64,000 nucleotides of DNA. Source: Ignavibacteriales bacterium. GTDB lineage: Bacteria > Bacteroidota > Ignavibacteria > UBA10030. Within the stretch, counting starts at the first letter, position 1. Each line of letters starts with the position of its first letter. Positions 18,487 through 31,419 of the stretch are shown here, in pieces. A program made the position numbers and the translations under genes. Under the pieces are notes generated by a model that was not told the DNA's origin, did not search any database, and saw nothing but the letters and a program-made list of their open reading frames with translations. The stretch covers positions 26,574 to 90,573 of the forward strand of contig JAPLFQ010000033.1 of NCBI GenBank assembly GCA_026390595.1, in the 5' to 3' direction.

Positions 18487-18505
18487 GGCAGTTCTATCAA
18501 ACTCA

Positions 18506-18540
18506 AAAAGCCCGGGGGGTTGATCCCGCCGGGCTTTTTT
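18506..18540. terminator. Bidirectional rho-independent terminator between convergent genes
   Basis: AAAAAGCCCGGGGGG-ttgat-CCCGCCGGGCTTTTTT. The GC-rich hairpin is flanked by an A-tract and a T-tract. Confidence 0.65.
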
Positions 18541-18560: not shown

Positions 18561-21500
18561 TTACGTGTTCACGACAACGTCTTTGCGCACGTAAGACCCC
18601 GCTGATTGGTCCCCCTCAAATGGGACGGCGAGAATGAGATGGTCTCCGTCATGCGCGAGCACCCGCGCGCCTTCGACGCTTCGGGCAGTACGAGATCGAT
18701 CAAGGACCTCGATGATCGAATCTTCGCCGGGCTTGCCTTCAAGAGTCAGAACGTATGACTTGTTGCGCCAGGATTCATTCACAACTCGAACCCCTTTCGA
18801 CTTTTGTCCGTGCTGGAAATGCGGAACTGCCGGGATGAGAGCCAGGCCCTGCTTGTGCTCAACTCGAACAACTGTTTTCCTGCCGAGCTGGAGTTGCACG
18901 GTGGGTAATGCGCGGTAGTCGTCAACCAGGACCGCGAAATTGTGCATGGTCGAGCCAATCGTGAAACGCTCGATAAATGTGCCGAGTGAGAAGAACGGGC
19001 GGAAGGAGAGTGAGTAGTTTGCAGAGGGTCTGGACTTGTTTGAATAACGTCGGAGAGAAATAACGAAGACGGTTTCTTTCTCCTTGCGGTAGAGATCCAA
19101 GTCCATTCGGTGATCGCCGAGTCGGATGTTCTTTACGCTCGCTTCTCTCCAATCCGGTGGAAAATAGGGGCTCATGTGCACAGTCTTGTGGATGACATCC
19201 GTCTCCAGTCCGAGCAACCCCTCTATCAGCGGTTGAATGACCATCGATTGTGACCATGCCTGGTGAGGGCAAACTCCCACTGGTCGAAATACCTCTCCGT
19301 GAAGGACCTCCTCCATGTTGCCGGCACTGAACTGATCGTACAGCAGCGCATTGCTCAGGAGATGCATATAGCCCTGCAGAGGTCGCAGATTGGTGAATTC
19401 CGCGAGAGAGGTCCAGCCGGTGAACAGCGGCCAGATACTTCCGTAGTGATACCCCGTGGGATTGAAGAACCGGTTGTCTTTGCCAACGATTCGTACGCCC
19501 CAATCCGAGGAAAAGTTGTCACCCGAGTATTCAGCCAGACTGTGTTGCGCTTTGTCGTGTTCCGTGCACTTGAAGTACATCCCGACGGATGGAAGGACGG
19601 TTTTCTCTTCAACAAAACTTCCGTCCCGGCACTTGGAGAAGTTGTAGAAGCCTGTGCGCGGATTCCAGAACTCCCTTTTCAACACGGTGCGCACCAGCTC
19701 AGCCTTCTCGTTCCACTTTCGTCCGAGTCGTCGTTCGGAAAGAAGCTCGGCCATGAAGGAGCTCTGCAAGAGCGCTTCTGCCCAGCAGGCATTCAGGTAG
19801 TGCTCCGCATGAGATGGGAAGAGCTGTCCCCCTTCAACCCAGCCATGTCCAACATTCGCATTCTCAATCAGATGGTCGTTGTCGGTGTCAGTTGAATAGC
19901 AATATTCTATCGCCTTGATTAACCTCGAGAACTCACTGGCTGCAAATTCGCGATCGCCCGTAGCCCTCACATACCGGCCCATCAGAACGAGATAGAGCGG
20001 AGTCGAATCAGCTGCGTCGTAGTGAGCGTATCCGCTTGTCGTCAATTCATGGAGCACTTTGCCGTCAATATCCTGATAATTGCCAAGGAATTCGAGAACA
20101 TCACGGACTATTTCATGTTCACCGCAGGCCAATGCCGCAAGGCCTGTCCAAACGCTGTCCCGGCCGAAGTACCAGGCGTACCCTGGCCTGCCGCTGATGG
20201 TATGACCTCCATTCCATCCCTCACTGCTCAGTCCATAGCCGGCGACAAAGGATCGTCCCAGCAAAGGTGCCTCGACTACGAACTTGTCCAAACCGGCGAT
20301 TGCCCACCGGTAGGCGTTGTTGACTTGTTCGGAGGGAGTTGCGAATCGAACGGAAGACCTTAGGACGGATCGTAATCGTGAGCGCTGTCTCCCCAGCGAT
20401 GGACCTGGTCGCTGGACGACTGATCGGTACGACTGAATTGACTCCTGCATGCTTTGCCCGGAACCCGCGAAAGCGATCGTGCACTGCCTGGCTCCAGAAT
20501 TGAGCGATACGCGGAATCCTAATGCCACGGCGGAGCTTTCAGTCGGGAGCCCTTTGAGTCGATCGCCTTCCAGGACTATCTCCGAGTATTGGCCAATCAA
20601 ATGGTCCGTTGGCTTTCGTGATGAACCCAGGATTGAGGATGATTGGCCGGAGGCATCCGTGATGATCCCCGCATGAATTGCTTCATCCCAAGCGAAACGA
20701 CGAGACCCGATCGCCCGATCACTCAACGGCCACATAGTCCTTAGATCTATGCGGGCAGACAGAACAATCTGCACTGTCTTTCTGGACCTGACACTGTAGT
20801 GAATCGCTCCACACGGTTTTAAGAGATCAGCGAAAAGAGTTTCTTCGATTGTTGCATCATTCAAGTTGTATCTGCGGGTGAGCGATTCAGGGCATATCGT
20901 CACGACGGGGGAGAGCTCGTGGCTCCATTGTGGGAGGGCTTTGCCGACTCGAAACTGAATCTTGAGATTGTCCAGTATTCGAACCGGGTGACACCAGATT
21001 TCGGAAATGCCGCCGCGTTCTCCACCCATGATCAGGACCCGCCTGCCACTGAGATCGAAAAACTGTTCAGTCAGATCCGGCGCCGCAAAATCCCTATGGA
21101 TAACAAGTTCGTCCGATCTTGTCGGGAGCTTGTGCGAGGTCACCGAGAGCGGTTTGCTCCGGTGGCTGAACTCGGCAACGGTCGGAAGGGAAAAGTCCCA
21201 GTAGATGCGCTCATTCACCTTTTCTGACTTCCGCGCGGTTGGGGTTGACAGATAGGAGAAGCAATTCGAGGCGAAATGTTCCAGTTGTCTTCTGAACCGC
21301 TGTTCCGAGTCCGAAAAATAGAAGTGCGACCCGATGGACACGATCCGGCCTGCATCCAGGCTGTGCTCGATGACGTTCCGGCGCTGCTCATCGAGCTTGA
21401 TGTACAATTTTTCGACTGCGACAACTCTGCCCGCAGCAGGGAGCTGATCTTCATAGTACGCAGCAGTATAGCGTCGTCCGATGTCCGGAGCCGATGTGAA

Positions 21501-21938
21501 GGTTCCCCCGGAAAAGCCTTTGAATATCGGATGTTGACCGAAAGCTCCGAAACCGCGGGTATCCGGATGTCCTTCGGCCCACGACTTTTCTTCCCACAGG
21601 CCGGAGACACAGATGTTCGGCCTGATTGATTCGAGGCCAAGATCCACAACGTATTGTGCAGAGGCCAGGGAAAGGAGCAGTCCCCGTCCTTTCGAGAGAA
21701 ATGCCCGGATGGATCTGATCGTGCTGTCGTTTGTTGCAATCTCCGGCAGTTCAAGCGACTCGTCGAAGTGCCACCATGCAAGATCGAAGTTCAGGAGTGA
21801 GCGAGGATTCTTATCCAGGGCTGAGAAGAGAACTTTCTCTGCTCGAAATGTCTTGAGCCTCGACACGAATGACCAGGCGGAATGTTCCTCCTGGTTGAGT
21901 GTATGAGGGTCAACGATGAGAAACGCGATCTTCTTCAA
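18561..21938 (-). CDS. Large (1125 aa) cytoplasmic six-hairpin glycosidase-like protein (GDE_C / amylo-alpha-1,6-glucosidase-like core) with extra N- and C-terminal domains
   Basis: Central region carries motifs typical of (alpha/alpha)6 GDE_C/GH63-type enzymes (GRDSVWTGLA; GYHYGSIWPLFTGW). No signal peptide. The N-terminal ~300 aa (MKKIAFLIVD...) resembles a ThuA/GATase1-like fold. Family assignment is by motif only. Confidence 0.5.
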   Translation of the reverse strand: MKKIAFLIVDPHTLNQEEHSAWSFVSRLKTFRAEKVLFSALDKNPRSLLNFDLAWWHFDESLELPEIATNDSTIRSIRAFLSKGRGLLLSLASAQYVVDLGLESIRPNICVSGLWEEKSWAEGHPDTRGFGAFGQHPIFKGFSGGTFTSAPDIGRRYTAAYYEDQLPAAGRVVAVEKLYIKLDEQRRNVIEHSLDAGRIVSIGSHFYFSDSEQRFRRQLEHFASNCFSYLSTPTARKSEKVNERIYWDFSLPTVAEFSHRSKPLSVTSHKLPTRSDELVIHRDFAAPDLTEQFFDLSGRRVLIMGGERGGISEIWCHPVRILDNLKIQFRVGKALPQWSHELSPVVTICPESLTRRYNLNDATIEETLFADLLKPCGAIHYSVRSRKTVQIVLSARIDLRTMWPLSDRAIGSRRFAWDEAIHAGIITDASGQSSSILGSSRKPTDHLIGQYSEIVLEGDRLKGLPTESSAVALGFRVSLNSGARQCTIAFAGSGQSMQESIQSYRSVVQRPGPSLGRQRSRLRSVLRSSVRFATPSEQVNNAYRWAIAGLDKFVVEAPLLGRSFVAGYGLSSEGWNGGHTISGRPGYAWYFGRDSVWTGLAALACGEHEIVRDVLEFLGNYQDIDGKVLHELTTSGYAHYDAADSTPLYLVLMGRYVRATGDREFAASEFSRLIKAIEYCYSTDTDNDHLIENANVGHGWVEGGQLFPSHAEHYLNACWAEALLQSSFMAELLSERRLGRKWNEKAELVRTVLKREFWNPRTGFYNFSKCRDGSFVEEKTVLPSVGMYFKCTEHDKAQHSLAEYSGDNFSSDWGVRIVGKDNRFFNPTGYHYGSIWPLFTGWTSLAEFTNLRPLQGYMHLLSNALLYDQFSAGNMEEVLHGEVFRPVGVCPHQAWSQSMVIQPLIEGLLGLETDVIHKTVHMSPYFPPDWREASVKNIRLGDHRMDLDLYRKEKETVFVISLRRYSNKSRPSANYSLSFRPFFSLGTFIERFTIGSTMHNFAVLVDDYRALPTVQLQLGRKTVVRVEHKQGLALIPAVPHFQHGQKSKGVRVVNESWRNKSYVLTLEGKPGEDSIIEVLDRSRTARSVEGARVLAHDGDHLILAVPFEGDQSAGSYVRKDVVVNT

Positions 21939-24796
21939 TGCAATTCTACCTGCATCATGTAGTTTCGTTCGAACAGTTCATTCCAAACCCAGAGATCCGT
22001 CTGGGTCTGCACTCCGAAACGGAGACTGAGCCTCTTCCCCCTTGCCAACTGTAACCCGTATCGATCGTTTCTGGGGATTCTCAGGGTGAGACGATTACGG
22101 TAAATCGTGTTGCCGGATCGGTCGAGTTTGACCGAGACCACGCTGAGTCCCGTCGATCGCAGGATGTCCCGTCGATCTTTCGGGGTATTTACCCAGTCAG
22201 AACAATCGCGAAGATAGTAATCGGCCACCTTCGCAGAATCTCCGTTATTGAGCACGCGAATTTGGAAATTGTCAAAGCCGTGGAACCAACCATCGTTGTT
22301 GGCATCGATCTGAACGAGCAGGTTTGCCGGTTGTGCAGTGAGAGCAGAGAGATAGAGGGCGGAATCGGTCCAGGCGAGATAAAATTGGGCATCCATCAAG
22401 CTGGTATGAATCGCCCCGAAGGGACAAGACTCGAGCTCGGTCACACTCTTGATTCGCTGAATTGCGGGATTCATGGGGTAGAGGGGCTCAGGGTCAACTT
22501 TGTCAAGTATTCCGTCGCTATCCGTGTCCTTCTTTGTAAGGGAGGATGATCGCGAAGATCCCATCATCACTTCTTCAAGATCTGACAAACCATCATCATC
22601 GGAGTCGCTCGAAGCAGGGTCGCTCCCCAGACGTTTCTCGTCGAATGGGAGCGTCCGGTCGTCATCTGGCACCCCATCTCTGTCGGCATCAAGCGTTGCA
22701 TACAGCTTTCCAAATTTCAGAGTAAGCCAACAGGTCCTGTCTGCGTTTCTGATGATCTTTGCATTGAAATCGAAGTCTTCACCGAACCGTCCCGGCATTT
22801 TCCATGGCTGATCAGCGTGGTAGTACTCTGGAAACCCTGACATCTCCATCAGGGCGTCAATCTGATGGTGAAACTCATGCGTGATCAACCAGTCCTGACG
22901 GCTGAAGCGATCCTGGAACGGGTTGCTTGTATATCCGGCCGTCTTGCCATACTTCCATGGTGCCGGTACGCCGTACGTGCCGCCGCCGACAGCCTGCCTG
23001 ATTACAACGGTGTCCTTTCTTGTTGAATCGCGTAGTGCGCTTGCTCGACGAGATGGATAGTTGAACCAGGCATAGGGACAGACCAGTCCACAATAGTCGT
23101 CGGGGTTCTTTCCATAGAAGCGAGCCGCCTTCTCGAAGTCGTGCGTTACGCGCTCGTTTGGCGATAACCAATATGGATCAGTGTCTCCGACTTCGTGCAA
23201 CCACAAAGTGTCTTCAACGACGTACATGTCGAAATCCAGAACTACCTTACAGCCTGAGTTTCGAAAGTAGAACTCGCTGTTGAATGCGGTTGCCTGTCTG
23301 AGATACTCCATATCAGCAGAATCCAGAGTCCTTCCAGCGGGGACTCCGGGAAAGTGAATCTGAGGGTACTTATCCCTGTAGCTGATCGTGCGGTACACTA
23401 TACACATCACTGGCAGACGTGTCAGTGATGTCATTCTTGGATCGGCGGGGGGAGTTGAGAAGCGGAACTGCTTCGAAGAGGAATACTTCCCGGGTACTGT
23501 CTTCAGGGCAGGACCAAATCTGTAGCTGTACCGCGAAAGTGGACTGAGTTTGGACAGAGAAACAGATCGCTGATTGTGATCATTGACCGCAGCATCGGTG
23601 CGCCAAGATTCTCCATCTCGTGCCACGTCCAGCCAGGCGGGACCAGAGAGGTTTGTCGTCCATGAAATCTGACAACTTCCCAGATTCCTGTCGGTGATTG
23701 CCGATGGCTGTGCCGGAGGATCATCATTCAAAAAGACCAGTTTGTCGTAGTCAGCTACGACGAGGGTGTTCCTGCCGAAGACAGCAATACCGCGAGGGGC
23801 CTTGAATCCCCCGATGACCGCAGCATCAATAGTGTTTTCAAGATGCCCGCTTGAGTTGAACACGAAAATGACTCTCGCGCCCGGATCGGCCGCAAAGAGT
23901 TTTCCGGAGTGTGAGGCAAGTGAGGTTGGAGAAACGAGCCGCTCTGAGATGGAATCGACGAGTGCTCCGGATGAGTCTGAAACCAGTATCCGCCTGCCGA
24001 GTATGGCAAATGTCTTTCCGTCGAGTCCAATCTGCTTTGGCATCTCTGGAGGTGTCTTCATCGGCTCGGCTGACAGCAGTGAGCCTTCTGCATCGATCCG
24101 AAGCAATTGTTTCAACTCGGGGTGGTAGACTTCGAGAGTCGATCCACGCTCACGGACGTAGGCAAGATGTGCGAAGGAAACCTTATCACGTTTTCCCGGT
24201 ATTCGGACGATCGATGGCGGTCCGCTTGCGGAAACGCGAACTGATTTGAACTCAGACAATCCGTCGGAGGATTCAAGTCCTATGTACCCGGATACGAAAA
24301 CGAGATTGGTATCGACGCCGACGATTTCTCCGTCGATGAAAACCTTGTAACGGCTATGTACGGGGTCGACGTCGATTCGAAGAGTTGTCCAGTCGGATGG
24401 TATCTTCGGAGAGTCAAAAGTGCTGGTGGCTGTGAATTCCCCTGCAGCATTGAAGTACCCGGCAAGAAAACTCTTCTCGTCGAATCGAACCATGTGCGAA
24501 AGCGCTTTTGAGGACCGATCGTCAAGGCTGAAATAGAGACCAGCACGAATGCCCCTGAGGGTTGCTTCGATCGAGAATGGCTGGTCCGCAAACGCATAGA
24601 ACGAAGACGAAAGCAAATCGTCGTAATCCCTCGAATTGATCTGAAGACAATTCCCTTTGGTGTGCCAGTCACCTGTCGCAGCCTTCCATTGACGCCCGAG
24701 ATCAACGCGTTGGAAATCGTCCTGGAACCAGACCGTCTGCGCAGACAGAAGGGAACTGGAAAATGCCAGAAACAAGATTATGGCGATCTGTCTCAT
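21935..24796 (-). CDS. Secreted multidomain protein (~953 aa): LamG/DUF1080-like, NHL-like beta-propeller, FN3-like, HExxH region, thrombospondin type-3 Ca-binding repeats, CBM9/DOMON-like C-terminus
   Basis: Signal peptide MRQIAIILFLAFSSSLLSAQT (start taken at 24796, the track ORF extends to 24844). HEFHH motif. Three DxDxDGxxD repeats (DADRDGVPDDD, DSDDDGLSDLEE, DTDSDGILD). ATGA overlap with the downstream 1125-aa gene. Confidence 0.5.
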   Translation of the reverse strand: MRQIAIILFLAFSSSLLSAQTVWFQDDFQRVDLGRQWKAATGDWHTKGNCLQINSRDYDDLLSSSFYAFADQPFSIEATLRGIRAGLYFSLDDRSSKALSHMVRFDEKSFLAGYFNAAGEFTATSTFDSPKIPSDWTTLRIDVDPVHSRYKVFIDGEIVGVDTNLVFVSGYIGLESSDGLSEFKSVRVSASGPPSIVRIPGKRDKVSFAHLAYVRERGSTLEVYHPELKQLLRIDAEGSLLSAEPMKTPPEMPKQIGLDGKTFAILGRRILVSDSSGALVDSISERLVSPTSLASHSGKLFAADPGARVIFVFNSSGHLENTIDAAVIGGFKAPRGIAVFGRNTLVVADYDKLVFLNDDPPAQPSAITDRNLGSCQISWTTNLSGPAWLDVARDGESWRTDAAVNDHNQRSVSLSKLSPLSRYSYRFGPALKTVPGKYSSSKQFRFSTPPADPRMTSLTRLPVMCIVYRTISYRDKYPQIHFPGVPAGRTLDSADMEYLRQATAFNSEFYFRNSGCKVVLDFDMYVVEDTLWLHEVGDTDPYWLSPNERVTHDFEKAARFYGKNPDDYCGLVCPYAWFNYPSRRASALRDSTRKDTVVIRQAVGGGTYGVPAPWKYGKTAGYTSNPFQDRFSRQDWLITHEFHHQIDALMEMSGFPEYYHADQPWKMPGRFGEDFDFNAKIIRNADRTCWLTLKFGKLYATLDADRDGVPDDDRTLPFDEKRLGSDPASSDSDDDGLSDLEEVMMGSSRSSSLTKKDTDSDGILDKVDPEPLYPMNPAIQRIKSVTELESCPFGAIHTSLMDAQFYLAWTDSALYLSALTAQPANLLVQIDANNDGWFHGFDNFQIRVLNNGDSAKVADYYLRDCSDWVNTPKDRRDILRSTGLSVVSVKLDRSGNTIYRNRLTLRIPRNDRYGLQLARGKRLSLRFGVQTQTDLWVWNELFERNYMMQVELH

Positions 24797-24890
24797 TTGA
24801 TGTTTCTTTGCTGAGAGTTCGTCGTCAACACCCGGGATATGCATAACGTCTTGAGATCATCTGATTGGGTTCTGCAACAACTGCACAATC

Positions 24891-26207
24891 CTATCGAGGT
24901 CTGTTCTTCCTTTTCCAGAACAAGAAGACCGGAACACCCGCGGCGAGGAAAGCAAGACCTGCTAACGACTCTGCTGGCTTTTCGAAAAGTGTATAGATCA
25001 CAAAGAGTGTTGAAATCGTCACGAACAATATGGGCGTTAGTGGGTATCCAAGCGTCCTATACGGGCGCTCCGCCTGCGGTAGACGCCGTCGGAAAATAAA
25101 AATGCTGAATGCTGCGAGCGCAAAGAATATCCAATCTGTAAACACAACATAGGAAATCAGGCTTTCGAATGTTCCCCAAAACAGGATGAGCACGATCGCC
25201 CAGGCAGATTGAAGGGCAATGGCGAGCATCGGTGTCCGAAATCTTGGATGGACCTCGGCGACTTTCTTGAAGAAGAGGCCATCATTCGCCATCGCATAGT
25301 AGATCCGCGGAGCCGTCAGTGTGTAGATACCGGTTGTCCCGAATGTGGATATGAAGATCGTGATTGCAATCAGACTGCCCCCTACAGGTCCGAGAACAAG
25401 GCTGATGGCATCCGCTGCAACGCGAGGAGAAGCTGCCATCTGAGCTGGAGTCATGAGAAACATGTATGCAACATTCGTCGAGATATAGATGATCGTAACC
25501 GCGAGTGCCCCGATGATGAGCGAACGAGGGACACTCCTTTTTGGGTCTTTTGCTTCCGCTGCCGTGAAGGTCGCGTGCTGCCAGCCGCCAAAAGACCAGA
25601 GAACGCTCACGAAGGCGAGCGTCAGAGCGCTCGACAGACCGTTCGGAAGGTGTCCGAGCGGTATTGAGAAATCCGTGGTCGTGCTCGATCCCCAGCCAAT
25701 ACCAACTGCGATGAGAGCAACTATCCCAAGGATCTTCAGGACCGTAAACAAATCGGAGAAGATGCCTCCGGCTTTAACGCCCAGAATGTTTATGATGGTA
25801 ACCAGGATGATTCCCAGTATTCCCACCAGGGTTGTGTGCTCGCCGGCAAACGGCACGAAGAAGCCGAGGTAGGTGGAAAACGCCAGAGCCAAAGCAGCAA
25901 GTGCACCGGTGTTGACGACAAGGAAATATGCCCATCCGTACAGAAAACCGACCAGCCCCCCGTACGCTTTAGTAAGAAACACATACACACCGCCCGCCCG
26001 GGGCATCATGGCACCGAGTTCTGCATATGTCAGGGCACCGCACATGGTTGTGAGACCGCCGAGAACCCAGATTCCGAGAATCCAGACAGGAGAGGGGAGC
26101 GCTTTTGCAATGAGTGCTGGTGTAAGGAATATTCCGGAACCGATGGATGACCCTATAGCGATCATGGTCATGTCAAAGAGGGAAAGCTCACGCCGGAGAT
26201 CTGCCAT
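24891..26207 (-). CDS. Amino acid permease (APC superfamily)
   Basis: 12-TM protein with the APC family N-terminal signature (FDMTMIAIGSSIGSGIFLTPA). Confidence 0.85.
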   Translation of the reverse strand: MADLRRELSLFDMTMIAIGSSIGSGIFLTPALIAKALPSPVWILGIWVLGGLTTMCGALTYAELGAMMPRAGGVYVFLTKAYGGLVGFLYGWAYFLVVNTGALAALALAFSTYLGFFVPFAGEHTTLVGILGIILVTIINILGVKAGGIFSDLFTVLKILGIVALIAVGIGWGSSTTTDFSIPLGHLPNGLSSALTLAFVSVLWSFGGWQHATFTAAEAKDPKRSVPRSLIIGALAVTIIYISTNVAYMFLMTPAQMAASPRVAADAISLVLGPVGGSLIAITIFISTFGTTGIYTLTAPRIYYAMANDGLFFKKVAEVHPRFRTPMLAIALQSAWAIVLILFWGTFESLISYVVFTDWIFFALAAFSIFIFRRRLPQAERPYRTLGYPLTPILFVTISTLFVIYTLFEKPAESLAGLAFLAAGVPVFLFWKRKNRPR

Positions 26208-26217
26208 AAGGGAAGTC

Positions 26218-26254
26218 GATTGTCGCTGGTGATATTATTGTTGGGGGATTGTCG
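26218..26254. repeat. Two copies of the GATTGTCG octamer in the 5' region of the APC permease gene
   Basis: GATTGTCG at 26218-26225 and 26247-26254. The same octamer occurs three times upstream of proS (38292-38327). Confidence 0.4.
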
Positions 26255-26258
26255 TGAA

Positions 26259-28511
26259 CTATATCTGTATTTGGATAGCCTTGCCAATGACACTTTCGGC
26301 ATGATGTTCGCCATCGAGCCAAACCGTGAATCGTGATCTCCGGACGTCCACCCGGAGATATCTGCCTCGCACCAGGACATTGTCAACAGTAACGGAGTCG
26401 AGGTTGAATGGGAATGGATCGATGAGAACAGAAAACTCTTCCGGTCGTATTCCACACACATACTTCAGGATGAGGTCGTTTACCCAGGAATGCTGGTAGT
26501 CATCAATGCCGCGGTAGATACTGGGCGTTCCTGATTCGGGATTGTAGTGCTCGAAGCAGTTCGGGCGCCGGGGATCTCCGTCGAAGAACATCAATCTAAC
26601 GTACTTCGTCATGAACTCAGCCGCCTTCTTGCGCAGTCCTTTGTCTGAGAATGCGATCGCCGCGGCGGCGAGGACTTCTGCTATGTGGCTGTTCGTCATC
26701 GGCCAGACCCGCCCGTTCCACGGACAGTTCATGCGCTTGCCTTTCCAGGTGGGAGAGGCTGAAAAGAACTCATCATCCGCACTGGAGGAGGGAACGGGGT
26801 AGGGCGTCCAGAATTCTTTCTTGTTTAGAAGATGACGCTTGAGTCCGGGGAGATGACTCCTGTCTACGATGTCGGTGAAGTATGGATAGAAACACGTGGC
26901 GGCCTTTACCAGGGTCCGATTTCCAGAGGCAGGATCGACATCAAAAAACATCTCCTGCTCGGAGTCCCACATTCTCTCGAGTACAGCCGTCTTGATCTTC
27001 CCGGCTTCGATTCTCCATAGCTCGCTTTCGTCGGTTCTGCCAAGTGTCTCGGCAACGGCCGACAACGCCCGTTTGAGCTCGTACAGATAGACGGTAACAT
27101 CGACTCCCTTGAGTCTGAATGCTTCGCCCCAATGTTCCTCGTCGGCCCGTGGATTGACCGCCGTATACCTGTGCATGTATTCCTGGCCCGTCTCATAATG
27201 ATTCTCGATGTCGTACAGTCCGCTGATCTCTTCGTCGCGTTCTTTGTCGAAATAGCCGGCGTACTTCTTCAGCCCTTCGTACACCTGCCCCAGGTAATCC
27301 GCGGAAGGATGCATGGCGTGAAGCTGAAGCAAGGCATTTCCCCAGTTCGCGTGGTAGAACATTTCCTGCCGGTAGTGGTTCATATCGATGTAGCCACGGA
27401 ACCCGCCATCATCGCGTTGGTTGTCGATAAATGTCAGAAGGCTTCCGCGGGCGAGCTCAGGATCGTGCATCCAGCGGTTTTCCAGGATATGGCATTGAGC
27501 ACTGTACGAAATGGGAGCGCGAAAATAGCCGATCCCCTCACAGACAAAAGGACGTTTGTAGTTTCCATCATTGCCGTACTGGGTGTTAAGTTTGAGTCCG
27601 TACCATCGATACCAGTAGTAGCGAGTCAAGAACTCGTCCGAGGAATTAAAATGGGGGACAGAGGCGAAGTGATCGTTCCAGCTGATTCTGCTCAGTTCGG
27701 CCGGATTGTTCTGGCGGAGAGCCGCACGTACGTTGCCATAGGTCTCATCGGACGAGGGGGAAGCCGCGAAGGCTATTGGTATTTCAGCTTCCATTCCTGG
27801 TTTGAGCGTGATCTCTGTGTGAAGTCCTGCATAGATGAGCCCCTCCTGTTCCGATCCCGTAATCTCGCTGGTGTTCTGCAATCTCCCTTCGTGAAACGTC
27901 TCGAACCAGGGAGTCAGAGCCCAATGAGGCTGGACAGCAGTCCGCTCGCTGAGACTGACGGAATAGGATTGGTTCGATGCACGCATTGCAAGCGCGCAGG
28001 CAATTTCAACGTGCGGTGCCACCGAGGGACGTACGAATTTGGTGAACGCAATTCCGTCACGACCCCGCTCCACGTCGGTTATCCAAGCCGATGATTTGGA
28101 TGGGACGATTTCCTGAATGGTCCATGCCACGAGGTGAAGGCGGAGTGTATTGCGTGAGCGGTTTTTCAATGTGACGACACTGAGCGCTACATCGTTGGGA
28201 AGAAGGGATTTTGTTTCCAGCACCTGAACATGCCGCGCATCTCCTTTGAGCGTACAATCGTATTCCTGGGTCATGAAAGCCGGATTCCAGGTTCGTCTGC
28301 AAAATGTAAGTGGGGACTCCCGTCCCGCGTCATCGAGAATCGCCCAAGTGAACAGAGGTTTGATCTCATAGTTATAGTAGTGCGCTTCATCCCAGAATCC
28401 GGGGAAATCAAGAAAGAGAGGGAACGTGGGAGCCCATAGCAGGCGATTTCCGCCGCCGAGGTACCATTTGTCGTTTCGCTCAAGATAACGGAGCAGGTCG
28501 ATTTTCTTCAT
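26259..28511 (-). CDS. Six-hairpin (alpha/alpha)6 glycoside hydrolase/phosphorylase-like protein, 750 aa (GH63/GH37/GDE-like clan)
   Basis: N-terminal beta-sandwich plus C-terminal helical barrel. Motifs FYHANWGNALL and NCPWNGRVWP (NGxxWP type). No signal peptide. Family not resolvable by eye. Confidence 0.55.
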   Translation of the reverse strand: MKKIDLLRYLERNDKWYLGGGNRLLWAPTFPLFLDFPGFWDEAHYYNYEIKPLFTWAILDDAGRESPLTFCRRTWNPAFMTQEYDCTLKGDARHVQVLETKSLLPNDVALSVVTLKNRSRNTLRLHLVAWTIQEIVPSKSSAWITDVERGRDGIAFTKFVRPSVAPHVEIACALAMRASNQSYSVSLSERTAVQPHWALTPWFETFHEGRLQNTSEITGSEQEGLIYAGLHTEITLKPGMEAEIPIAFAASPSSDETYGNVRAALRQNNPAELSRISWNDHFASVPHFNSSDEFLTRYYWYRWYGLKLNTQYGNDGNYKRPFVCEGIGYFRAPISYSAQCHILENRWMHDPELARGSLLTFIDNQRDDGGFRGYIDMNHYRQEMFYHANWGNALLQLHAMHPSADYLGQVYEGLKKYAGYFDKERDEEISGLYDIENHYETGQEYMHRYTAVNPRADEEHWGEAFRLKGVDVTVYLYELKRALSAVAETLGRTDESELWRIEAGKIKTAVLERMWDSEQEMFFDVDPASGNRTLVKAATCFYPYFTDIVDRSHLPGLKRHLLNKKEFWTPYPVPSSSADDEFFSASPTWKGKRMNCPWNGRVWPMTNSHIAEVLAAAAIAFSDKGLRKKAAEFMTKYVRLMFFDGDPRRPNCFEHYNPESGTPSIYRGIDDYQHSWVNDLILKYVCGIRPEEFSVLIDPFPFNLDSVTVDNVLVRGRYLRVDVRRSRFTVWLDGEHHAESVIGKAIQIQI

Positions 28512-28542
28512 GTCATTGTTCCGTCCTTAGAAAAGGAAGACT

Positions 28543-29367
28543 TCATCCCTTCAAACCGGTCATGGTGATCCCTTTGACGAAGTACTTCTGTGCCGCAATG
28601 AACACCACAACGACGGGGAGCATAACAACTACGGCTGCGGCCATCTGATGTGGCCAGTCGGTTGTGTACAGGTTACTGAAATTAGCGATTCCGACTTCGA
28701 CGGTCCTCATGTCGGTCCGGTTCGTGACGATCAGCGGCCACAGAAAGTCTTTCCAGCTCCCCATGAAGGCGAAAATTGCAAGCGTCGCAAGAGCGGGCTT
28801 AGACAGAGGAAGGATCACCCGGAGGAAGATCGTGAGTTCCGAGGCGCCATCGACGCGCGCTGCATCTTCGATATCCCTTGGAATTGTCAGAAAGAACTGG
28901 CGCAGAAGAAATATCCCCCACACGCTTGAGACTGTGGGAGTGAACAGCGCCCAGTAGGTGTTCATCCAACCGAACGTGTTGATGAGGAGAAATGCCGGAA
29001 TGATTGTGACCATCGCCGGTATCATCATGGTGCTCAGGTAGAGGGCGAAGATTCTGTCTCGCCATCGGAAACGGAGCCGCGCAAAAGCGTATGCCGCCAT
29101 CGAGCAAAACGTGAGCTGCCCGATCACGGAAGCAGCAGCAACGATGAAAGAGTTCAGGAAGAATCGCCCGAACGGTTGGAGCGTCATTGCCTCTCCGTAA
29201 TTCGACCACTTCAACACGGAGGGGACAAACCGGGGCGGGAATTGATACACTTCCAATTCGCTCATGAGCGAAGTACTGAGCATCCACAGAAAAGGGAGGA
29301 GCATGGAGAGCGCGAGCAGAACCAGGCCGCCATAAATCAAAAGTCGGTTCAAACGCTTCATCGGCAC
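28543..29367 (-). CDS. Carbohydrate ABC transporter permease (MalG/UgpE-like)
   Basis: 6 TM helices and the EAA-like loop (IEDAARVDGASELTIFLRVILPLSKPAL). Confidence 0.85.
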   Translation of the reverse strand: MPMKRLNRLLIYGGLVLLALSMLLPFLWMLSTSLMSELEVYQFPPRFVPSVLKWSNYGEAMTLQPFGRFFLNSFIVAAASVIGQLTFCSMAAYAFARLRFRWRDRIFALYLSTMMIPAMVTIIPAFLLINTFGWMNTYWALFTPTVSSVWGIFLLRQFFLTIPRDIEDAARVDGASELTIFLRVILPLSKPALATLAIFAFMGSWKDFLWPLIVTNRTDMRTVEVGIANFSNLYTTDWPHQMAAAVVVMLPVVVVFIAAQKYFVKGITMTGLKG

Positions 29368-29377
29368 AGTAACCTGA

Positions 29378-30280
29378 CTATTTCACTGGATTGATTTGTT
29401 CCCACACGTGTGGATCTTCATGGCCCAAACGCCAAACGGAGATGCCTCTGAAATGGTATTTCTTCACCAGGGCGAGTTTGGCGGCCATCGACCGTGCGTC
29501 TTCCAGGTAAATGTATTCGTTGAGGAACTCATTCGGGTAGACCGCATACGATACCTTCTCGCGATCATCCCACTTCCACGTTGCATTGTTACGCTCAGCG
29601 AGTGCCATTGCTTCGGCATAGTCGAGGCTTTTTCCCCAGGCGTGGGCTGCATTGTTCTGATATTCGGGCTGCCAGACTCTGGAGTAGAAGGGGATTCCGA
29701 GAGAGATCTTCCCGGGCGGTACCCCTTTCATCACGAATTGAATGATTGCTTCCATCCATGGTACACCCGCCACCGGCCCCGGGGTCGTCCGATGCGTGTG
29801 CTGTTCATAGGTCATAAGCGAAATGAAGTCGCCAATCTCCGCCAGGGCCTTGTAGTCGAATACGCCTCGCCAGTACTCATAGATCCACTTGTGGAATTCA
29901 GTCGGACCGATGTCCTCAGATGACCTCGGAACGACGGCGACACTGATTGCGTAGCCGTTCGAGTGGAGGGCTGCTGCCGCCTGACGGTAGAAGTCTGTAA
30001 ACGCGTCCTTGTCCGAAATATGGATGTTCTCAAAATCGAACTGAAGGCCGTAGTATTTGTTCTCTCGGCATACGCGAACCATGTTGGAGACACCCCGAGC
30101 CCGGGCAGCGGAATCATGGAGAAGCGCATGAAACGAAGGCTGATCGAAGCCAGGGTTCACCACCAGGGGCATCACCTTGACATTGTTTTTTGAGGAGAGC
30201 TCGAGGATCCTCCGATCAACGGAGCCCCACATGTTTCCGTGCTCATCCAACACCGCAATGATACGACTCCTATATCGCAT
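29378..30280 (-). CDS. GH18-like glycosyl hydrolase family protein (YaaH/YdhD-type catalytic domain), cytoplasmic
   Basis: YGLQFDFENI (variant GH18 D-x-E catalytic motif) and ISLGIPFYSRVW (GH18 LGxPxYGR-like). No signal peptide. Confidence 0.45.
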   Translation of the reverse strand: MRYRSRIIAVLDEHGNMWGSVDRRILELSSKNNVKVMPLVVNPGFDQPSFHALLHDSAARARGVSNMVRVCRENKYYGLQFDFENIHISDKDAFTDFYRQAAAALHSNGYAISVAVVPRSSEDIGPTEFHKWIYEYWRGVFDYKALAEIGDFISLMTYEQHTHRTTPGPVAGVPWMEAIIQFVMKGVPPGKISLGIPFYSRVWQPEYQNNAAHAWGKSLDYAEAMALAERNNATWKWDDREKVSYAVYPNEFLNEYIYLEDARSMAAKLALVKKYHFRGISVWRLGHEDPHVWEQINPVK

Positions 30281-30309
30281 GACGGTTTCCTCCGGTTGTG
30301 CGGATCTTT

Positions 30310-31419
30310 TTAGTCGCCGAAGCAGATGCCGAGGTCTCTTGCTGTAAGCATCGTGTCGCAGTCAAGCGGGACTTTCTTCATGCGCCTCGTCGCCTGCTCG
30401 AGCGGAACATAGCGAACTGTCGGCGGATCGAGCGCAACCATGACCCCGGACCTTCCCTCCTCGAGAGCGCGCACGGCAGCAGCCCCAAATCTGAGCGAAA
30501 TAAGGCGGTCAAATGTAGTAGGGGACCCCCCTCGCAGGAGGTGTCCGAGCACCACGCACCGCGATTCGCGTCCCGTGAGTTCCTGAAGTTCAGCGGAAAC
30601 CCGCTCACCGGCTCCTCCAAGGCGTTCCGCCCGGCCAAGCTCTTTGGAAACAACTGAAACGGTTCCACCCTTTGGCTTTGCGCCCTCGGCAACAACAACA
30701 ATAGCGAAGTTGCGTCCGCGTGAATATCGGTCTTGAATCTTGTCAGCGACCTTCTTGAGGTCGTAAGGGATTTCCGGTATCAAGATTGCATCCGCAGTGC
30801 CCGAAACGCCGCTGTTCAGAGCGATCCATCCGGCGTAGCGTCCCATTACTTCGACAACCATGACTCGTTGATGTGCCTCAGCCGTCGAGTGCAGACGGTC
30901 AAGGCACATCGTTGCAAATCCAACTGCGGTGTCGAACCCGAATGTGATGACAGTCTTTTCGAGATCATTGTCGATTGTTTTCGGTACTCCGACAACTCGC
31001 AGCCCTTTCTGTGCGAGCGCGTTGGAAATCGTGAGAGATCCGTCTCCGCCGATAGAGATGAGGGCGTCAATTTTTTCTTTCTTGAATATTTTCACCAGCT
31101 CGCCCGTCCGATCTTTCTCATACATTTTCCCATCCCTGCCTTTGACGGGATACTTCATCGGATTTCCTTTGTTTGTCGTTCCAAGGATTGTGCCGCCAAG
31201 GTGCGTGATGCCCCGGACCCGGTCTCTTGTCAGTGGGATGAGCCCTCCATCGGGATATTGTTCAGGGAGTAGAAGTCCGTTGTAGCCGTCTCTGATGCCG
31301 ATGCATTCCCAGCCACGGTCGATAGCAGTGATCACCGCTGCACGAATGACTGCATTGAGCCCGGGAGCGTCTCCGCCTCCGGTATTGATTGCAATGCGTT
31401 TGATAGGCTTGAGTGCCAT
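30310..31419 (-). CDS. pfkA: 6-phosphofructokinase (ATP-type motif GGDGS)
   Basis: RIAINTGGGDAPGLNAVIRA ... ISIGGDGSL ... PKTIDNDL. PFK family signatures. Confidence 0.9.
   Translation of the reverse strand: MALKPIKRIAINTGGGDAPGLNAVIRAAVITAIDRGWECIGIRDGYNGLLLPEQYPDGGLIPLTRDRVRGITHLGGTILGTTNKGNPMKYPVKGRDGKMYEKDRTGELVKIFKKEKIDALISIGGDGSLTISNALAQKGLRVVGVPKTIDNDLEKTVITFGFDTAVGFATMCLDRLHSTAEAHQRVMVVEVMGRYAGWIALNSGVSGTADAILIPEIPYDLKKVADKIQDRYSRGRNFAIVVVAEGAKPKGGTVSVVSKELGRAERLGGAGERVSAELQELTGRESRCVVLGHLLRGGSPTTFDRLISLRFGAAAVRALEEGRSGVMVALDPPTVRYVPLEQATRRMKKVPLDCDTMLTARDLGICFGD

What the first reader, a model, noticed from the sequence alone, without database searches (positions are those of the whole stretch)
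18561..24844. Translationally coupled pair of giant proteins: secreted multidomain HExxH/TSP3/CBM9-like protein plus cytoplasmic 1125-aa GDE_C-like glycosidase
The 969-aa secreted protein and the 1125-aa signal-peptide-less protein overlap by ATGA at 21935-21938 and sit directly downstream of an APC permease on the same strand. One partner is extracellular and calcium-binding with a putative zincin motif and carbohydrate-binding-like domains. The other is an intracellular six-hairpin glycosidase with an additional N-terminal ThuA/GATase1-like domain. The pairing is unusual and unexplained. Together with the convergent lipoprotein zinc metalloprotease across a bidirectional terminator, this looks like an uncharacterised surface-glycan or glycoprotein-processing module.
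Basis: partly seen in the sequence, partly recalled or inferred. Interest (0 to 1): 0.6.

Follow-up and report, generated by a model that had tools for sequence, protein, structure and literature searches.

The report
Exported HExxH glycan-binder coupled to glycosidase
Two very large adjacent genes in an uncultured Ignavibacteriales genome are the tail of an ordinary-looking sugar-uptake operon. One encodes an exported multi-module glycan-binding protein built around an uncatalogued zinc-protease-like (HExxH) domain, and the other a signal-peptide-less relative of poorly characterised six-hairpin glycosidases, so the pairing is real and recurrent but optional.

Summary
Both ORFs exist on the minus strand as described. 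There are two corrections. The 4-nt overlap at 21935-21938 is TTGA (TTG start), not ATGA. Homologues also put the start of the upstream gene at 24796 (953 aa), not 24844.

geneA consists of a signal peptide, a CBM66-like lectin domain, four NHL-like blades, an Fn3 domain, a 250-aa orphan domain, three TSP3 calcium repeats and a CBM9-like domain. The orphan domain carries a near-universal HExxHxxD motif and matches nothing in Pfam, NCBIfam or PDB sequences.

geneB consists of a DUF4960 (levan-SGBP type) domain, a beta-sandwich, an (alpha/alpha)6 barrel closest to GH176, and two more beta-sandwiches. It has no signal peptide.

The pair ends a conserved operon: SufS-like PLP enzyme, SBP-permease fusion, PFK, GH18, ABC permease, GH63-like GH, APC permease.

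geneB follows geneA in 16 of 21 informative loci found through geneA, mostly with an NTGA overlap. Sampling through geneB changes the picture: only about half of close orthologues have geneA. Distant geneB-type enzymes are widespread, usually carry signal peptides and lack geneA.

Most likely geneA handles a glycoconjugate in the envelope, and geneB and the GH63-like enzyme finish the imported product. The substrate is unknown. Moderately interesting.

The parts
21935..24796 (-). geneA: exported 953-aa multi-module protein. The ORF extends to 24844, but homologues support the ATG at 24796.
   Evidence: AlphaFold model pLDDT 80
24737..24796 (-). Signal peptide (MRQIAIILFLAFSSSLLSA/Q). It has no lipobox, and no T9SS C-terminal domain was detected.
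   Evidence: sequence; no Por_Secre_tail hit
24197..24736 (-). CBM66-like concanavalin/LamG (DUF1080 superfamily) domain, residues 21-200
23687..24184 (-). NHL-like beta-propeller region, four 4-stranded blades, residues about 205-370
23453..23680 (-). Fn3 / purple-acid-phosphatase-N-like domain, residues 373-448
   Evidence: PF16656 in 34 of 37 family members, fn3 in 19 of 37
22682..23443 (-). Orphan central domain, residues 452-705. Secondary-structure order is zincin-like. It has no match in Pfam, NCBIfam or PDB sequences.
   Evidence: no match; 197 clusters in 1.84 billion representatives; conservation
22865..22879 (-). HEFHH motif (H640, E641, H644), followed by D647. E673 lies 29 residues after H644.
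   Evidence: H, E and H in 144-145, and D in 137, of about 148 domain instances; E673 in 106 of 146
22487..22690 (-). Three TSP3-type calcium-binding repeats (DxDxDGxxDxxD), residues 703-770
   Evidence: invariant Asp/Gly columns; motifs; PF18884 in 15 of 37 members
21938..22474 (-). CBM9-like C-terminal beta-sandwich, residues 775-953
21935..21938 (-). TTGA junction: the TTG start of geneB overlaps the TGA stop of geneA
   Evidence: NTGA conserved in 13 of 16 orthologous junctions, also in L030, L031, L085 and L098
18561..21938 (-). geneB: 1125-aa glycosidase without a signal peptide
   Evidence: AlphaFold pLDDT 90.6, pTM 0.91
21243..21938 (-). DUF4960 / SGBP_levan-binding-type flavodoxin-like domain, residues 1-232
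   Evidence: PF16324 at 27.4 bits, just under its cut-off. BLASTP E 1e-22 (26-27% id) to both DUF4960 copies of a T9SS GH32 enzyme, P0074. Fold and levan binding of DUF4960 are described in PMC10076258.
20454..21101 (-). N-terminal beta-sandwich of the glycosidase core, residues 280-495
   Evidence: aligned with the beta-sandwich plus barrel of 7vma, GH63, GH94 and GH116 structures
19209..20450 (-). (alpha/alpha)6 catalytic barrel, residues 497-910. R593-D594, W700-x-E702 and E877 are invariant.
   Evidence: PF22422, GDE_C and DUF608 above their cut-offs. Foldseek top hit 7vma (GH176), E 6e-25, TM 0.72. phmmer 7vma E 7e-9. Invariants.
18564..19205 (-). Two C-terminal beta-sandwich domains, residues 912-1125
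18505..18540 (.). Bidirectional intrinsic terminator: a G+C-rich hairpin between an A5 run and a T6 run
   Evidence: dG -28.2 kcal/mol, z -4.3
24891..35073 (-). Upstream genes of the same operon:
- APC permease, 24891-26207
- GH63-like/MGH1-like GH, 26259-28511
- ABC permease, 28543-29367
- GH18 (YaaH/YdhD-like), 29378-30280
- PFK, 30310-31419
- SBP-permease fusion, 31441-33837
- SufS-like class-V PLP enzyme, 33880-35073
   Evidence: the same order in L003, L005, L029, L032 and L042

Best explanation
**Context.** The two genes are the last two cistrons of a conserved Ignavibacteriales uptake-and-catabolism operon for an unidentified oligosaccharide or glycoconjugate.

**geneA (inferred).**
- It is exported through Sec. 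With no lipobox and no T9SS tail it most likely stays in the periplasm or cell envelope.
- It holds its substrate with two lectin-type modules (CBM66-like and CBM9-like) and an NHL propeller.
- It is stiffened by three calcium-binding TSP3 repeats.
- It acts on the substrate with a metal-dependent (probably zinc) hydrolase domain defined by HExxHxxD plus a downstream Glu.

**Import (inferred).** The products enter through the operon's sugar ABC transporter and APC permease.

**geneB (inferred).** In this clade geneB has lost the signal peptide that most of its distant relatives carry. Together with the GH63-like enzyme it removes terminal sugars from the imported product in the cytoplasm. PFK and the SufS-like PLP enzyme feed the pieces into central metabolism.

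**The overlap.** The TTGA overlap simply keeps the two cistrons co-expressed. geneA is an accessory front end that some lineages have and others lack.

**What is shown:** gene structure, domain architecture, conserved motifs, operon order, recurrence of the pair and of the overlap, and the optional nature of the pairing.

**What is inferred:** localisation, catalytic activity of both proteins, the order of action and the substrate.
For: **Operon**
- Order and conservation are documented.
- geneB follows geneA in 16 of 21 informative geneA loci, and the identities of the two genes fall together across loci.
- An NTGA overlap is present in 13 of 16 junctions.

**geneA**
- It has a signal peptide.
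- The N-terminal domain is CBM66-like.
- The C-terminal domain is CBM9-like.
- The TSP3 repeats are present.
- HExxHxxD is conserved in about 145 of 148 domain instances from 197 clusters, and E673 in 106 of 146.
- The predicted secondary-structure order, strand-helix-strand-helix-strand-strand-HExxH helix, is that of zincins.
- Relatives of the central domain sit in secreted proteins that also carry PPC, F5/8-C, Laminin_G_3, FG-GAP, CBM9 or T9SS tails.

**Independent recurrence of the link**
- In a 73% G+C metagenomic contig (L088), a signal-peptide protein with the HExxH domain and a CBM9-like end lies immediately upstream of GH63-like and geneB-type genes.
- Another family member is followed directly by a GH106 gene (L025).

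**geneB**
- The model is high-confidence.
- The nearest structures are GH176 7vma, then GH94, GH63 and GH116.
- Candidate catalytic residues are invariant.
- GH63-like is its commonest neighbour across 80 metagenomic loci (25 loci).
- No close orthologue has an N-terminal extension. Thirty-one of 52 homologues compared (most of the distant full-length ones) have a signal-peptide-like extension.
Against: - No activity of either protein is known, and the substrate is unidentified.
- The HExxH region is the least confident part of the model (pLDDT below 50 for residues 582-673). It matches no peptidase family by sequence. The fold searches returned only the lectin and propeller domains.
- The pairing is dispensable in both directions, so the two proteins need not act on the same molecule.
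- Context clues point in three directions:
  1. Alpha-glucoside: GH176, GH63-like, glgB nearby.
  2. Fructan or furanoside: CBM66, DUF4960, and GH172 and GH127 neighbours.
  3. Peptide or amino acid: HExxH, the APC permease, and M20/M28 neighbours in L024 and L016.
- Absence of a signal peptide was judged by eye and with a hydropathy rule, not with a trained predictor.
Confidence: 0.5

Rival explanations
1. **Storage-glucan housekeeping.** geneB is a debranching or trimming enzyme for the cell's own alpha-glucan and works with the adjacent glgB-GT4 genes. geneA is an unrelated exported adhesin or enzyme that was inserted upstream. The overlap reflects genome compaction only.
For: - GDE_C hit, and the JGI name 'glycogen debranching enzyme'.
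- The nearest structure was first described as an amylo-alpha-1,6-glucosidase.
- glgB is convergent right after geneB in L003, L029, L032, L039, L042 and L085, and one gene away in the window.
- geneB occurs without geneA in about half of close orthologues.
- A DUF4960-less paralogue sits next to a GH13 amylase in L028.
Against: - geneB is co-directional with, and at the end of, an import operon (SBP-permease, ABC permease, APC). glgB is on the opposite strand beyond a terminator.
- Most distant full-length relatives carry signal peptides and sit with secreted GH63-like, GH127 and GH172 genes and TonB receptors. They therefore act on external glycans.
- The GH176 debranching claim is itself disputed. 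The characterised member is an alpha-1,2-glucosidase (bioRxiv 10.64898/2026.07.01.735942).
- geneB has Glu where GH176 has the catalytic Asp.
Confidence: 0.2
2. **Fructan or furanoside pathway.** Both proteins target beta-fructofuranosyl (levan, inulin, FOS) or related furanoside-containing glycans. geneA captures chain ends with its CBM66-like module. geneB uses DUF4960 to hold the fructan chain while its barrel removes a terminal residue.
For: - The geneB N-terminus is homologous to the tandem DUF4960 of a GH32 enzyme.
- DUF4960 binds levan (PMC10076258).
- DUF2961/GH172 follows geneA in L018 and recurs near geneB-type genes in 7 loci. GH127 recurs in 12 loci.
- The GH116 exo-beta-D-arabinanase 8ic6 is among the geneB fold hits.
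- PFK is in the operon.
Against: - No GH32, GH68 or GH91 gene is in the window operon.
- CBM66 is not fructan-specific. A CBM66 that binds lyase-treated xanthan and not levan is known (PMC11002231).
- Ligand-binding residues were not compared.
- The geneB barrel is closest to alpha-glucosidase-type families.
- The GH172 and GH127 links are to distant homologues, not to the window.
Confidence: 0.15
3. **geneA is not an enzyme.** It is a calcium-dependent envelope lectin or adhesin, and the HExxH motif has a structural or metal-sensing role. geneB is the only catalyst of the pair.
For: - Most of geneA is binding modules: CBM66-like, NHL, Fn3, TSP3 and CBM9-like.
- No peptidase or hydrolase family matches the central domain.
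- The central domain is modelled with low confidence.
Against: - H, E, H and D of HExxHxxD are kept in 137-145 of about 148 instances, at pairwise identities down to about 25-30%. A further block of invariant residues lies around them. This is the pattern of an active site.
- The catalytic Glu is specifically retained.
Confidence: 0.15
4. **Fusion or hitch-hiking export.** geneB lacks a signal peptide but belongs to a mostly exported family. It would reach the envelope either as a -1 frameshift fusion to geneA or bound to geneA.
For: - geneB lies in the -1 frame relative to geneA, and the two overlap.
- Distant relatives carry signal peptides.
Against: - There is no slippery heptamer before the stop.
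- Signal-peptide-less geneB occurs without any geneA in L029, L032, L042, L043 and L076.
- Sec does not carry folded partners.
Confidence: 0.02

Closest known systems
GH176 (Pfam GDE_C): Thermococcus gammatolerans TgAMY (PDB 7vma) and the Arthrobacter A8F5 alpha-1,2-glucosidase
   Same: - A beta-sandwich plus (alpha/alpha)6 two-domain core.
- It is the best Foldseek hit (E 6e-25, TM 0.72) and the best PDB sequence hit (E 7e-9).
- An FGRD 'fixer'-type motif, a W-x-acid motif and a C-terminal Glu are conserved.
   Different: - 15% identity.
- About 500 extra residues: a DUF4960 domain in front and two beta-sandwiches behind.
- Glu702 stands where GH176 and clan GH-G have the catalytic Asp.
- The Pfam scores are split between MGH1-like_GH, GDE_C and GH116 models.
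GH116 (the NCBI name for this protein) and GH63 (YgjK, mannosylglycerate hydrolase-like)
   Same: - The same fold class.
- Partial HMM hits above the gathering scores (DUF608 30.7 bits, PF22422 44.9 bits).
- Foldseek E 1e-20 to 1e-22.
   Different: - The matches cover only about a third of each model.
- The GH116 acid/base Asp (TYD) aligns with Glu702.
- No conserved counterpart of the GH116 nucleophile was found.
DUF4960 / SGBP_levan-binding (PF16324), as in surface glycan-binding proteins and some GH32 fructanases
   Same: - Clear homology: BLASTP E 1e-22 to two DUF4960 copies.
- A flavodoxin-like alpha/beta fold.
   Different: - Here it is fused to a six-hairpin glycosidase, and in this clade it is apparently cytoplasmic.
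- Its ligand is untested.
CBM66 of Bacillus subtilis levanase SacC
   Different: - Sequence-level support is marginal (E 0.008).
- Binding residues were not compared.
- CBM66 specificities differ between members.
Glycan-targeted secreted zinc metallopeptidases that combine a HExxH gluzincin domain with carbohydrate-binding modules (M60-like/enhancin type). This comparison rests on my own knowledge, not on a test.
   Same: - HExxH with a Glu about 29 residues after the second His.
- Embedded among carbohydrate-binding modules.
- Encoded in glycan-utilisation loci.
   Different: - No detectable sequence similarity to any Pfam or NCBIfam peptidase model or to any PDB chain.
- The fold is not confidently predicted.
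- The extra conserved Asp (HExxHxxD) and a GGGxYG strand motif are particular to this family.

Membership tests
GH176 / GDE_C | Family-level sequence similarity to characterised members | tested here: inconclusive
   Pfam GDE_C scores 31.7 bits (cut-off 21). MGH1-like_GH scores higher at 44.9 bits. phmmer to 7vma gives E 7e-9 over 213 residues. Identity in the structural alignment is 15%. No dbCAN model was available.
GH176 / GDE_C | N-terminal beta-sandwich plus (alpha/alpha)6 barrel | tested here: met
   Model at pLDDT 90.6; Foldseek TM 0.72 normalised on 7vma
GH176 / clan GH-G | Catalytic acid Asp in a W-x-D motif, base Glu, 'fixer' Asp (bioRxiv 10.64898/2026.07.01.735942) | tested here: not met
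   The W-x-D of 7vma aligns with W700-V-E702, so geneB has Glu, not Asp. R593-D594 (fixer-like) and E877 are invariant, but the equivalence of E877 to the base was not shown.
GH116 | Glu nucleophile and Asp acid/base (TYD motif) in a retaining mechanism | tested here: not met
   The FPDQTYD motif of a GH116 chain aligns with GHGWVEG, putting the acid/base position at Glu702. No invariant acidic residue lies in the region where the nucleophile would be. The HMM hit covers positions 101-222 of 361.
DUF4960 / SGBP_levan-binding (PF16324) | Homology to the Pfam family | tested here: met
   27.4 bits against a cut-off of 29.2 for the window protein. BLASTP gives E 1e-22 twice to P0074, whose DUF4960 scores 174.5 bits. 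The precomputed PF16324 hit is present in most homologues.
DUF4960 / SGBP_levan-binding (PF16324) | Binding of levan | not testable with these tools
   Needs a binding assay. Only literature on other members is available.
CBM66 | Beta-sandwich fold superimposable on BsCBM66 | tested here: met
CBM66 | Sequence membership and conserved ligand-binding residues | tested here: inconclusive
   The profile against PDB finds only CBM66 chains below E 0.1, at E 0.008-0.02. Binding residues were not compared.
Zincin (gluzincin-type) metallopeptidases | HExxH on a helix | tested here: met
   H640, E641 and H644 are invariant in the family and present in 144-145 of about 148 instances in the wider family. 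They lie on predicted helix 634-652 (low confidence).
Zincin (gluzincin-type) metallopeptidases | Third metal ligand (Glu 18-72 residues downstream) | tested here: inconclusive
   E673 is 29 residues after H644 and is conserved in 106 of 146 instances (Asp in 14). D647, H660 and D662 are alternatives.
Zincin (gluzincin-type) metallopeptidases | Similarity of sequence or fold to a known peptidase family | tested here: not met
   There are no significant hits in Pfam, NCBIfam or PDB sequences. The best is a metzincin chain, 9tpb, at E 0.49. Fold searches returned only other domains.
Bacterial TSP3 calcium-binding repeats | DxDxDGxxDxxD repeats | tested here: met
   Three repeats with invariant Asp/Gly columns at 703-713, 731-742 and 757-768; PF18884 in 15 of 37 members
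CBM9 | CBM9 fold and HMM match | tested here: inconclusive
Translationally coupled gene pair | Start codon overlapping the upstream stop, conserved among orthologues | tested here: met
   TTGA in the window; NTGA in 13 of 16 junctions. Coupling itself cannot be tested here.
Bacteroidota-type polysaccharide utilisation locus (SusC/SusD) | Adjacent SusC-like TonB receptor and SusD-like gene | tested here: not met
   None is found among the operon genes. Transport is by ABC and APC systems.

The most novel reading that the evidence does not exclude
The 250-aa HExxHxxD domain of geneA founds a new family of metal-dependent hydrolases. The family has about 200 clusters at 50% identity, in bacteria and at least one archaeal-looking contig. 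These enzymes would cleave a linkage in a glycoconjugate. The geneB-type enzymes would be a new glycoside hydrolase family or subfamily with a Glu acid. Together with the GH63-like partner, the three would define an undescribed catabolic route, possibly for furanoside- or fructan-bearing material, which Ignavibacteriales have moved partly into the cytoplasm.
Probability: 0.2. Interest if true: 0.6.

Novelty: new variant of a known kind. Interest (0 to 1): 0.4.

Why it matters
If the central domain of geneA is catalytic, it is an uncatalogued metallohydrolase family. It is consistently embedded among carbohydrate-binding modules, and it was found twice, independently, next to the same two glycosidase types. 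That would give enzymologists a concrete, testable entry into a substrate class that current CAZy and MEROPS annotation misses.

geneB and its hundreds of metagenomic relatives are currently named inconsistently: 'GH116', 'glycogen debranching enzyme', 'amylo-alpha-1,6-glucosidase' and 'DUF4960 protein'. The nearest characterised family, GH176, is itself in dispute. One activity measurement would correct many annotations.

The loss of the signal peptide in one clade, together with the switch to an ABC importer, is a tidy example of an exported pathway moving into the cytoplasm.

None of this overturns a principle. It is a good candidate for characterisation rather than a surprise.

Tried and rejected
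**Searches for the central domain that found nothing**
- Pfam on the whole protein.
- Pfam on all 37 family members.
- Pfam and NCBIfam on 27 diverse domain sequences at E up to 10.
- Narrow and broad domain profiles against PDB sequences.

**Structure searches**
- The AlphaFold-database library was not available.

**Regulatory signals**
- Rfam found only three tRNAs and no riboswitch.
- The promoter and terminator scan gave no more sites than shuffled sequence, and it missed the real terminator. The terminator was confirmed by folding.

**Ideas considered and dropped**
- A -1 frameshift fusion of geneA to geneB. There is no slippery site, and signal-peptide-less geneB exists without geneA.
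- A GH63-like/geneB fusion in high-G+C loci. It is an artefact of long spurious ORFs: the tblastn frames differ.
- An N-glycan degradation locus. The GH18 is YaaH/YdhD-like rather than ENGase-like, and a GH38 is present in only one other locus.
- The class-V 'aminotransferase' as a transaminase. It is SufS/CsdA-like.

**Sampling bias**
The word-indexed protein search badly understated the size of the geneB family, returning 34 hits. The metagenome scan found more than 579.

Full report
**1. What is in the sequence**

The window carries two long minus-strand ORFs, 21935..24844 (969 aa) and 18561..21938 (1125 aa). Read on the coding strand, the junction is ...GAA TTG CAT TGA AGA AGA... The upstream stop is TGA (21937-21935), and the downstream gene starts at TTG (21938-21936).

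The TTG start is sound for three reasons:
- It is the first start codon after the preceding in-frame stop.
- Homologues begin at the same residue, with the consensus MKxVAFL.
- NCBI annotates an identical 1125-aa product (P0042).

For the upstream gene, homologues are 945-975 aa and the identical NCBI protein is 953 aa. The real start is therefore almost certainly the ATG at 24796. That start gives a classical signal peptide (MRQIAIILFLAFSSSLLSA/Q) with no lipobox.

The identical database proteins come from a 202-kb contig of an Ignavibacteriales metagenome-assembled genome. I call the two genes geneA (953 aa) and geneB (1125 aa).

**2. Anatomy of geneA**

An AlphaFold model built on 37 homologues (mean pLDDT 80) and the searches give this order of parts:
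- **Signal peptide.**
- **Four NHL-like propeller blades**.
- **An Fn3 / purple-acid-phosphatase-N-like domain.** PF16656 is found in 34 of 37 members.
- **A central domain of about 250 residues, 452-705.**
- **Three TSP3-type calcium-binding repeats** with invariant DxDxDG columns.

The central domain is the interesting part. It has no match in:
- Pfam;
- NCBIfam;
- PDB sequences, using either a narrow or a broad profile. The best hit is a metzincin chain at E 0.49, which is not significant.

A profile search of 1.84 billion representative proteins found 197 clusters at E up to 1e-3. Across about 148 aligned instances, H640, E641 and H644 are present in 144-145, D647 in 137, and E673 in 106 (Asp in 14 more). 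The signature is therefore HExxHxxD followed, 29 residues after the second His, by Glu.

The predicted secondary-structure order is strand, helix, strand, helix, strand, strand, then the HExxH helix. That is what a zincin catalytic domain looks like. However, residues 582-673 are modelled with pLDDT below 50. The fold searches returned only the lectin and propeller domains. The zincin assignment is therefore an inference, not a result.

Relatives of the central domain occur in secreted multi-module proteins. These carry NHL, Fn3, TSP3, CBM9-like, Laminin_G_3, F5/8 type C, PPC and FG-GAP modules or T9SS tails. One relative (P0039, L016) is fused to a degenerate Peptidase_M2-like domain that lacks HExxH.

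**3. Anatomy of geneB**

The model is very confident (pLDDT 90.6, pTM 0.91). It has four parts.

- **Residues 1-232: a flavodoxin-like alpha/beta domain.**
  - It scores just below the Pfam cut-off for DUF4960 (27.4 against 29.2 bits).
  - It is clearly homologous to that family. BLASTP gives E 1e-22 (26-27% identity) to each of the two tandem DUF4960 copies of P0074, a T9SS-secreted GH32 enzyme.
  - DUF4960 has been reported as a levan-binding Rossmann-like module (PMC10076258). The newer Pfam release calls it SGBP_levan-binding.
- **Residues 280-495: a beta-sandwich.**
- **Residues 497-910: an (alpha/alpha)6 barrel.**
- **Residues 912-1125: two further beta-sandwiches.**

Three overlapping Pfam models pass their cut-offs on parts of the barrel: MGH1-like_GH at 44.9 bits, GDE_C at 31.7 and the GH116 region at 30.7.

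The closest solved structure, by both sequence (E 7e-9) and fold (Foldseek E 6e-25, TM 0.72 on the target, 15% identity), is 7vma. This is the founding member of GH176. GH94 phosphorylases, GH63 YgjK and GH116 enzymes follow.

A 2026 preprint shows that a GH176 enzyme is an inverting alpha-1,2-glucosidase with an Asp acid, a Glu base and an Asp 'fixer'. It questions the original debranching assignment of 7vma (bioRxiv 10.64898/2026.07.01.735942).

In geneB the invariant residues include R593-D594 (fixer-like FGRD), W700-x-E702 and E877. E702 aligns with the W-x-D acid of 7vma and with the TYD acid/base of a GH116 chain. geneB thus keeps an acidic residue at the catalytic position, but it is Glu rather than Asp. 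geneB looks catalytically competent but is not a clean member of GH176, GH116 or GH63.

**4. The neighbourhood**

Upstream on the same strand, with short gaps, the genes run as follows from the start of the operon:
- a SufS/CsdA-like class-V PLP enzyme;
- a solute-binding-protein/permease fusion;
- a phosphofructokinase;
- a YaaH/YdhD-like GH18;
- an ABC permease;
- a 750-aa GH63-like (MGH1-like) glycosidase without a signal peptide;
- an APC permease.

geneA and geneB then close the operon. A strong hairpin flanked by an A-run and a T-run (18505-18540; dG -28.2 kcal/mol, z -4.3) separates them from the convergent gene.

The convergent gene encodes a DUF4953 Met-zincin lipoprotein. glgB, a cytidylyltransferase and a GT4 lie beyond it. 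No riboswitch or other Rfam element is present.

**5. Is the pairing conserved?**

*Sampling through geneA.* A scan of one genome per species found 23 loci, all Ignavibacteriota or unclassified Bacteroidota MAGs.
- In 16 of them a geneB orthologue starts right at the end of geneA.
- In two the contig ends there.
- In five (L007, L010, L014, L016, L018) geneA has other neighbours. L018 has a DUF2961/GH172 gene, a sugar ABC system, a fucose-isomerase-like gene and galactose genes. L010 has a secreted GH38 and the SufS-like gene. L016 has an M28 peptidase and a galactokinase.
- Of the 16 junctions, 13 have the start overlapping the stop as NTGA: GTGA nine times, ATGA three times and TTGA once, besides the window itself.
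- The identities of geneA and geneB to the window proteins fall together across loci, as expected if the two are inherited together.

*Sampling through geneB.* This gives a less flattering picture.
- Five close orthologues (38-59% identity) have geneA: L030, L031, L041, L085 and L098.
- Six lack it in an otherwise identical operon: L029, L032, L040, L042, L043 and L076.
- One, L039, retains only the last 51 codons of geneA (71% identical), still abutting geneB. This looks like a deletion.
- The convergent Met-zincin is present in L001, L019, L022 and L044. It is replaced by glgB in several others, so it is a variable neighbour.

**6. The wider geneB family**

The metagenome scan found more than 579 stretches encoding relatives. 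Many are full-length at 30-36% identity and include the DUF4960 domain. The family is therefore far larger than the word-indexed search suggested (34 hits).
- None of about 65 such loci has a geneA orthologue within 6 kb.
- Of 52 homologues compared with the geneB N-terminus, 31, all of them distant, carry an N-terminal extension with a signal-peptide or lipoprotein-type hydrophobic core. Every close Ignavibacterial orthologue starts directly at the first strand. Cytoplasmic location is therefore a derived trait of this clade, and it goes with the ABC importer.
- Across the 80 loci examined, the recurrent neighbours of geneB-type genes are:
  - a GH63-like enzyme (secreted in the loci checked; 25 of 80 loci);
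  - a 900-aa protein with an FGE-sulfatase-like end (15);
  - GH127 (12);
  - DUF2961/GH172 (7);
  - aldose 1-epimerase (6);
  - TonB-dependent receptors (6).
- The deep, stable partnership is thus geneB with the GH63-like enzyme, not geneB with geneA.

One observation does link the geneA central domain to these glycosidases independently. In a 73% G+C contig (L088), a signal-peptide protein with the HExxHxxD domain (HEVLHNVDD) and a CBM9-like end lies immediately upstream of GH63-like and geneB-type genes. In another contig (L025), a family member is followed directly by a GH106 gene. Other contexts are uninformative or different: an M20 peptidase in L024, and an archaeal-looking contig near STT3 in L036.

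**7. Best explanation**

The two genes belong to an uptake-and-catabolism operon. I infer the following sequence:
1. geneA is the exported front end. Two lectin-type modules and a propeller hold a glycan or glycoconjugate, the TSP3 repeats bind calcium, and the HExxHxxD domain performs a metal-dependent hydrolysis.
2. The ABC and APC transporters bring the products in.
3. geneB and the GH63-like enzyme remove terminal sugars in the cytoplasm.
4. The overlap keeps the two cistrons co-expressed.

Gene structure, domain architecture, motif conservation, synteny and the optional nature of the pairing are shown. Localisation, both activities, the order of events and the substrate are inferred. I put this at about 0.5.

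The substrate clues conflict, and I could not resolve them:
- Alpha-glucoside: GH176 and GH63 affinity, with glgB nearby.
- Fructan or furanoside: CBM66-like and DUF4960 modules, GH172 and GH127 neighbours, and a GH116 exo-beta-D-arabinanase among the fold hits.
- Peptide or amino acid: HExxH, the APC permease and neighbouring peptidases.

CBM66 is not diagnostic of fructan, because a xanthan-binding member is known (PMC11002231).

**8. Rivals**
- **Storage-glucan role for geneB, with an unrelated inserted geneA (0.2).** The GDE_C hit and the glgB adjacency favour it. Operon membership, and the exported status and neighbours of the wider family, count against it.
- **A fructan or furanoside pathway (0.15).**
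- **geneA as a non-catalytic lectin or adhesin (0.15).** The active-site-like conservation of HExxHxxD counts against it.
- **Export of geneB by frameshift fusion or hitch-hiking (0.02).** Rejected because there is no slippery site, and signal-peptide-less geneB exists without geneA.

**9. Comparison with what is known, and verdict**

The overall logic (exported binder or enzyme, importer, cytoplasmic glycosidases) is standard.

geneB is a new, divergent member of the six-hairpin glycosidases near GH176. It has an unusual DUF4960 fusion and a Glu at the acid position, and its annotations in public databases are inconsistent.

geneA is a new variant of the secreted, CBM-decorated HExxH protein theme. 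It is built around a domain family that no curated library describes.

The link to the convergent metalloprotease is not supported. The glycoprotein-processing idea remains open.

Interest is moderate (0.4). It is a worthwhile target for enzymology, mainly because of the orphan HExxHxxD domain and the mis-annotated geneB family, but it is not a surprising system.

Noticed in passing
L045-L118 (metagenome loci), compared with window 18561-21938: geneB-type enzymes with the full DUF4960 + sandwich + barrel architecture are widespread at 30-36% identity. Most carry a signal-peptide or lipoprotein-like N-terminal extension. The Ignavibacterial clade has lost it.
   Followed up: partly
L039:3304-3456: Only the last 51 codons of geneA (71% identical) survive, still abutting the geneB start. 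The APC permease and the rest of geneA are missing. This looks like a deletion scar.
   Followed up: partly
L088:753-3737: In a 73% G+C contig, a signal-peptide protein with the HExxHxxD domain (HEVLHNVDD) and a CBM9-like end lies directly upstream of GH63-like and geneB-type genes. This is an independent recurrence of the association.
   Followed up: partly
L016:9950-14746 (P0039, 1598 aa): A geneA homologue carries an extra C-terminal region of about 540 aa with a weak Peptidase_M2-like match (E 3e-5) but no HExxH.
   Followed up: partly
L036:8001-9569 (P0105): A 522-aa member of the central-domain family sits on a contig with Arf and Gtr1/RagA GTPases, RFC, Alba, eEF1A and a 1335-aa STT3. 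The contig is apparently archaeal (Asgard-like).
   Followed up: no
L006, L011, L012, L015, L019 (between the ABC permease and the GH63-like gene); also L028: Several related operons hold a second geneB paralogue of about 800-870 aa without the DUF4960 domain (about 25% identity). The window lacks it.
   Followed up: no
L003, L004, L011, L029, L030, L032 (between the APC permease and geneA or geneB): A secreted TPR protein of 420-435 aa occupies the position just upstream of geneA or geneB in many relatives. The window has no gene there. A 426-aa TPR protein is encoded elsewhere (36388-37668, + strand), and its relationship to these was not checked.
   Followed up: no
window 29378-30280 (-): The GH18 gene is 300 aa, against 348-350 aa in L029 and L032. 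Its Pfam match begins at profile position 61, so it may be N-terminally shortened. Its closest structures are the YaaH/YdhD spore-cortex type, and it keeps the FDFE catalytic motif.
   Followed up: partly
window 31441-33837 (-): A single 798-aa ORF fuses a sugar solute-binding protein to an ABC permease domain. The fusion is conserved in related loci.
   Followed up: no
window 23687-24184 (-): The NHL-like region of geneA has only four predicted blades, fewer than the six of canonical NHL propellers. More distant relatives have up to seven NHL repeats.
   Followed up: no
L018:12860-13936 and seven geneB-type loci (e.g. L113:10190-11359): DUF2961 (GH172) genes recur next to both a lone geneA and distant geneB-type genes. 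GH127 recurs next to geneB-type genes in 12 loci.
   Followed up: partly
window 6436-6439 and 13593-13596 (+): Two other same-strand gene pairs in the window also overlap by four bases, so this junction type is common in this genome.
   Followed up: no
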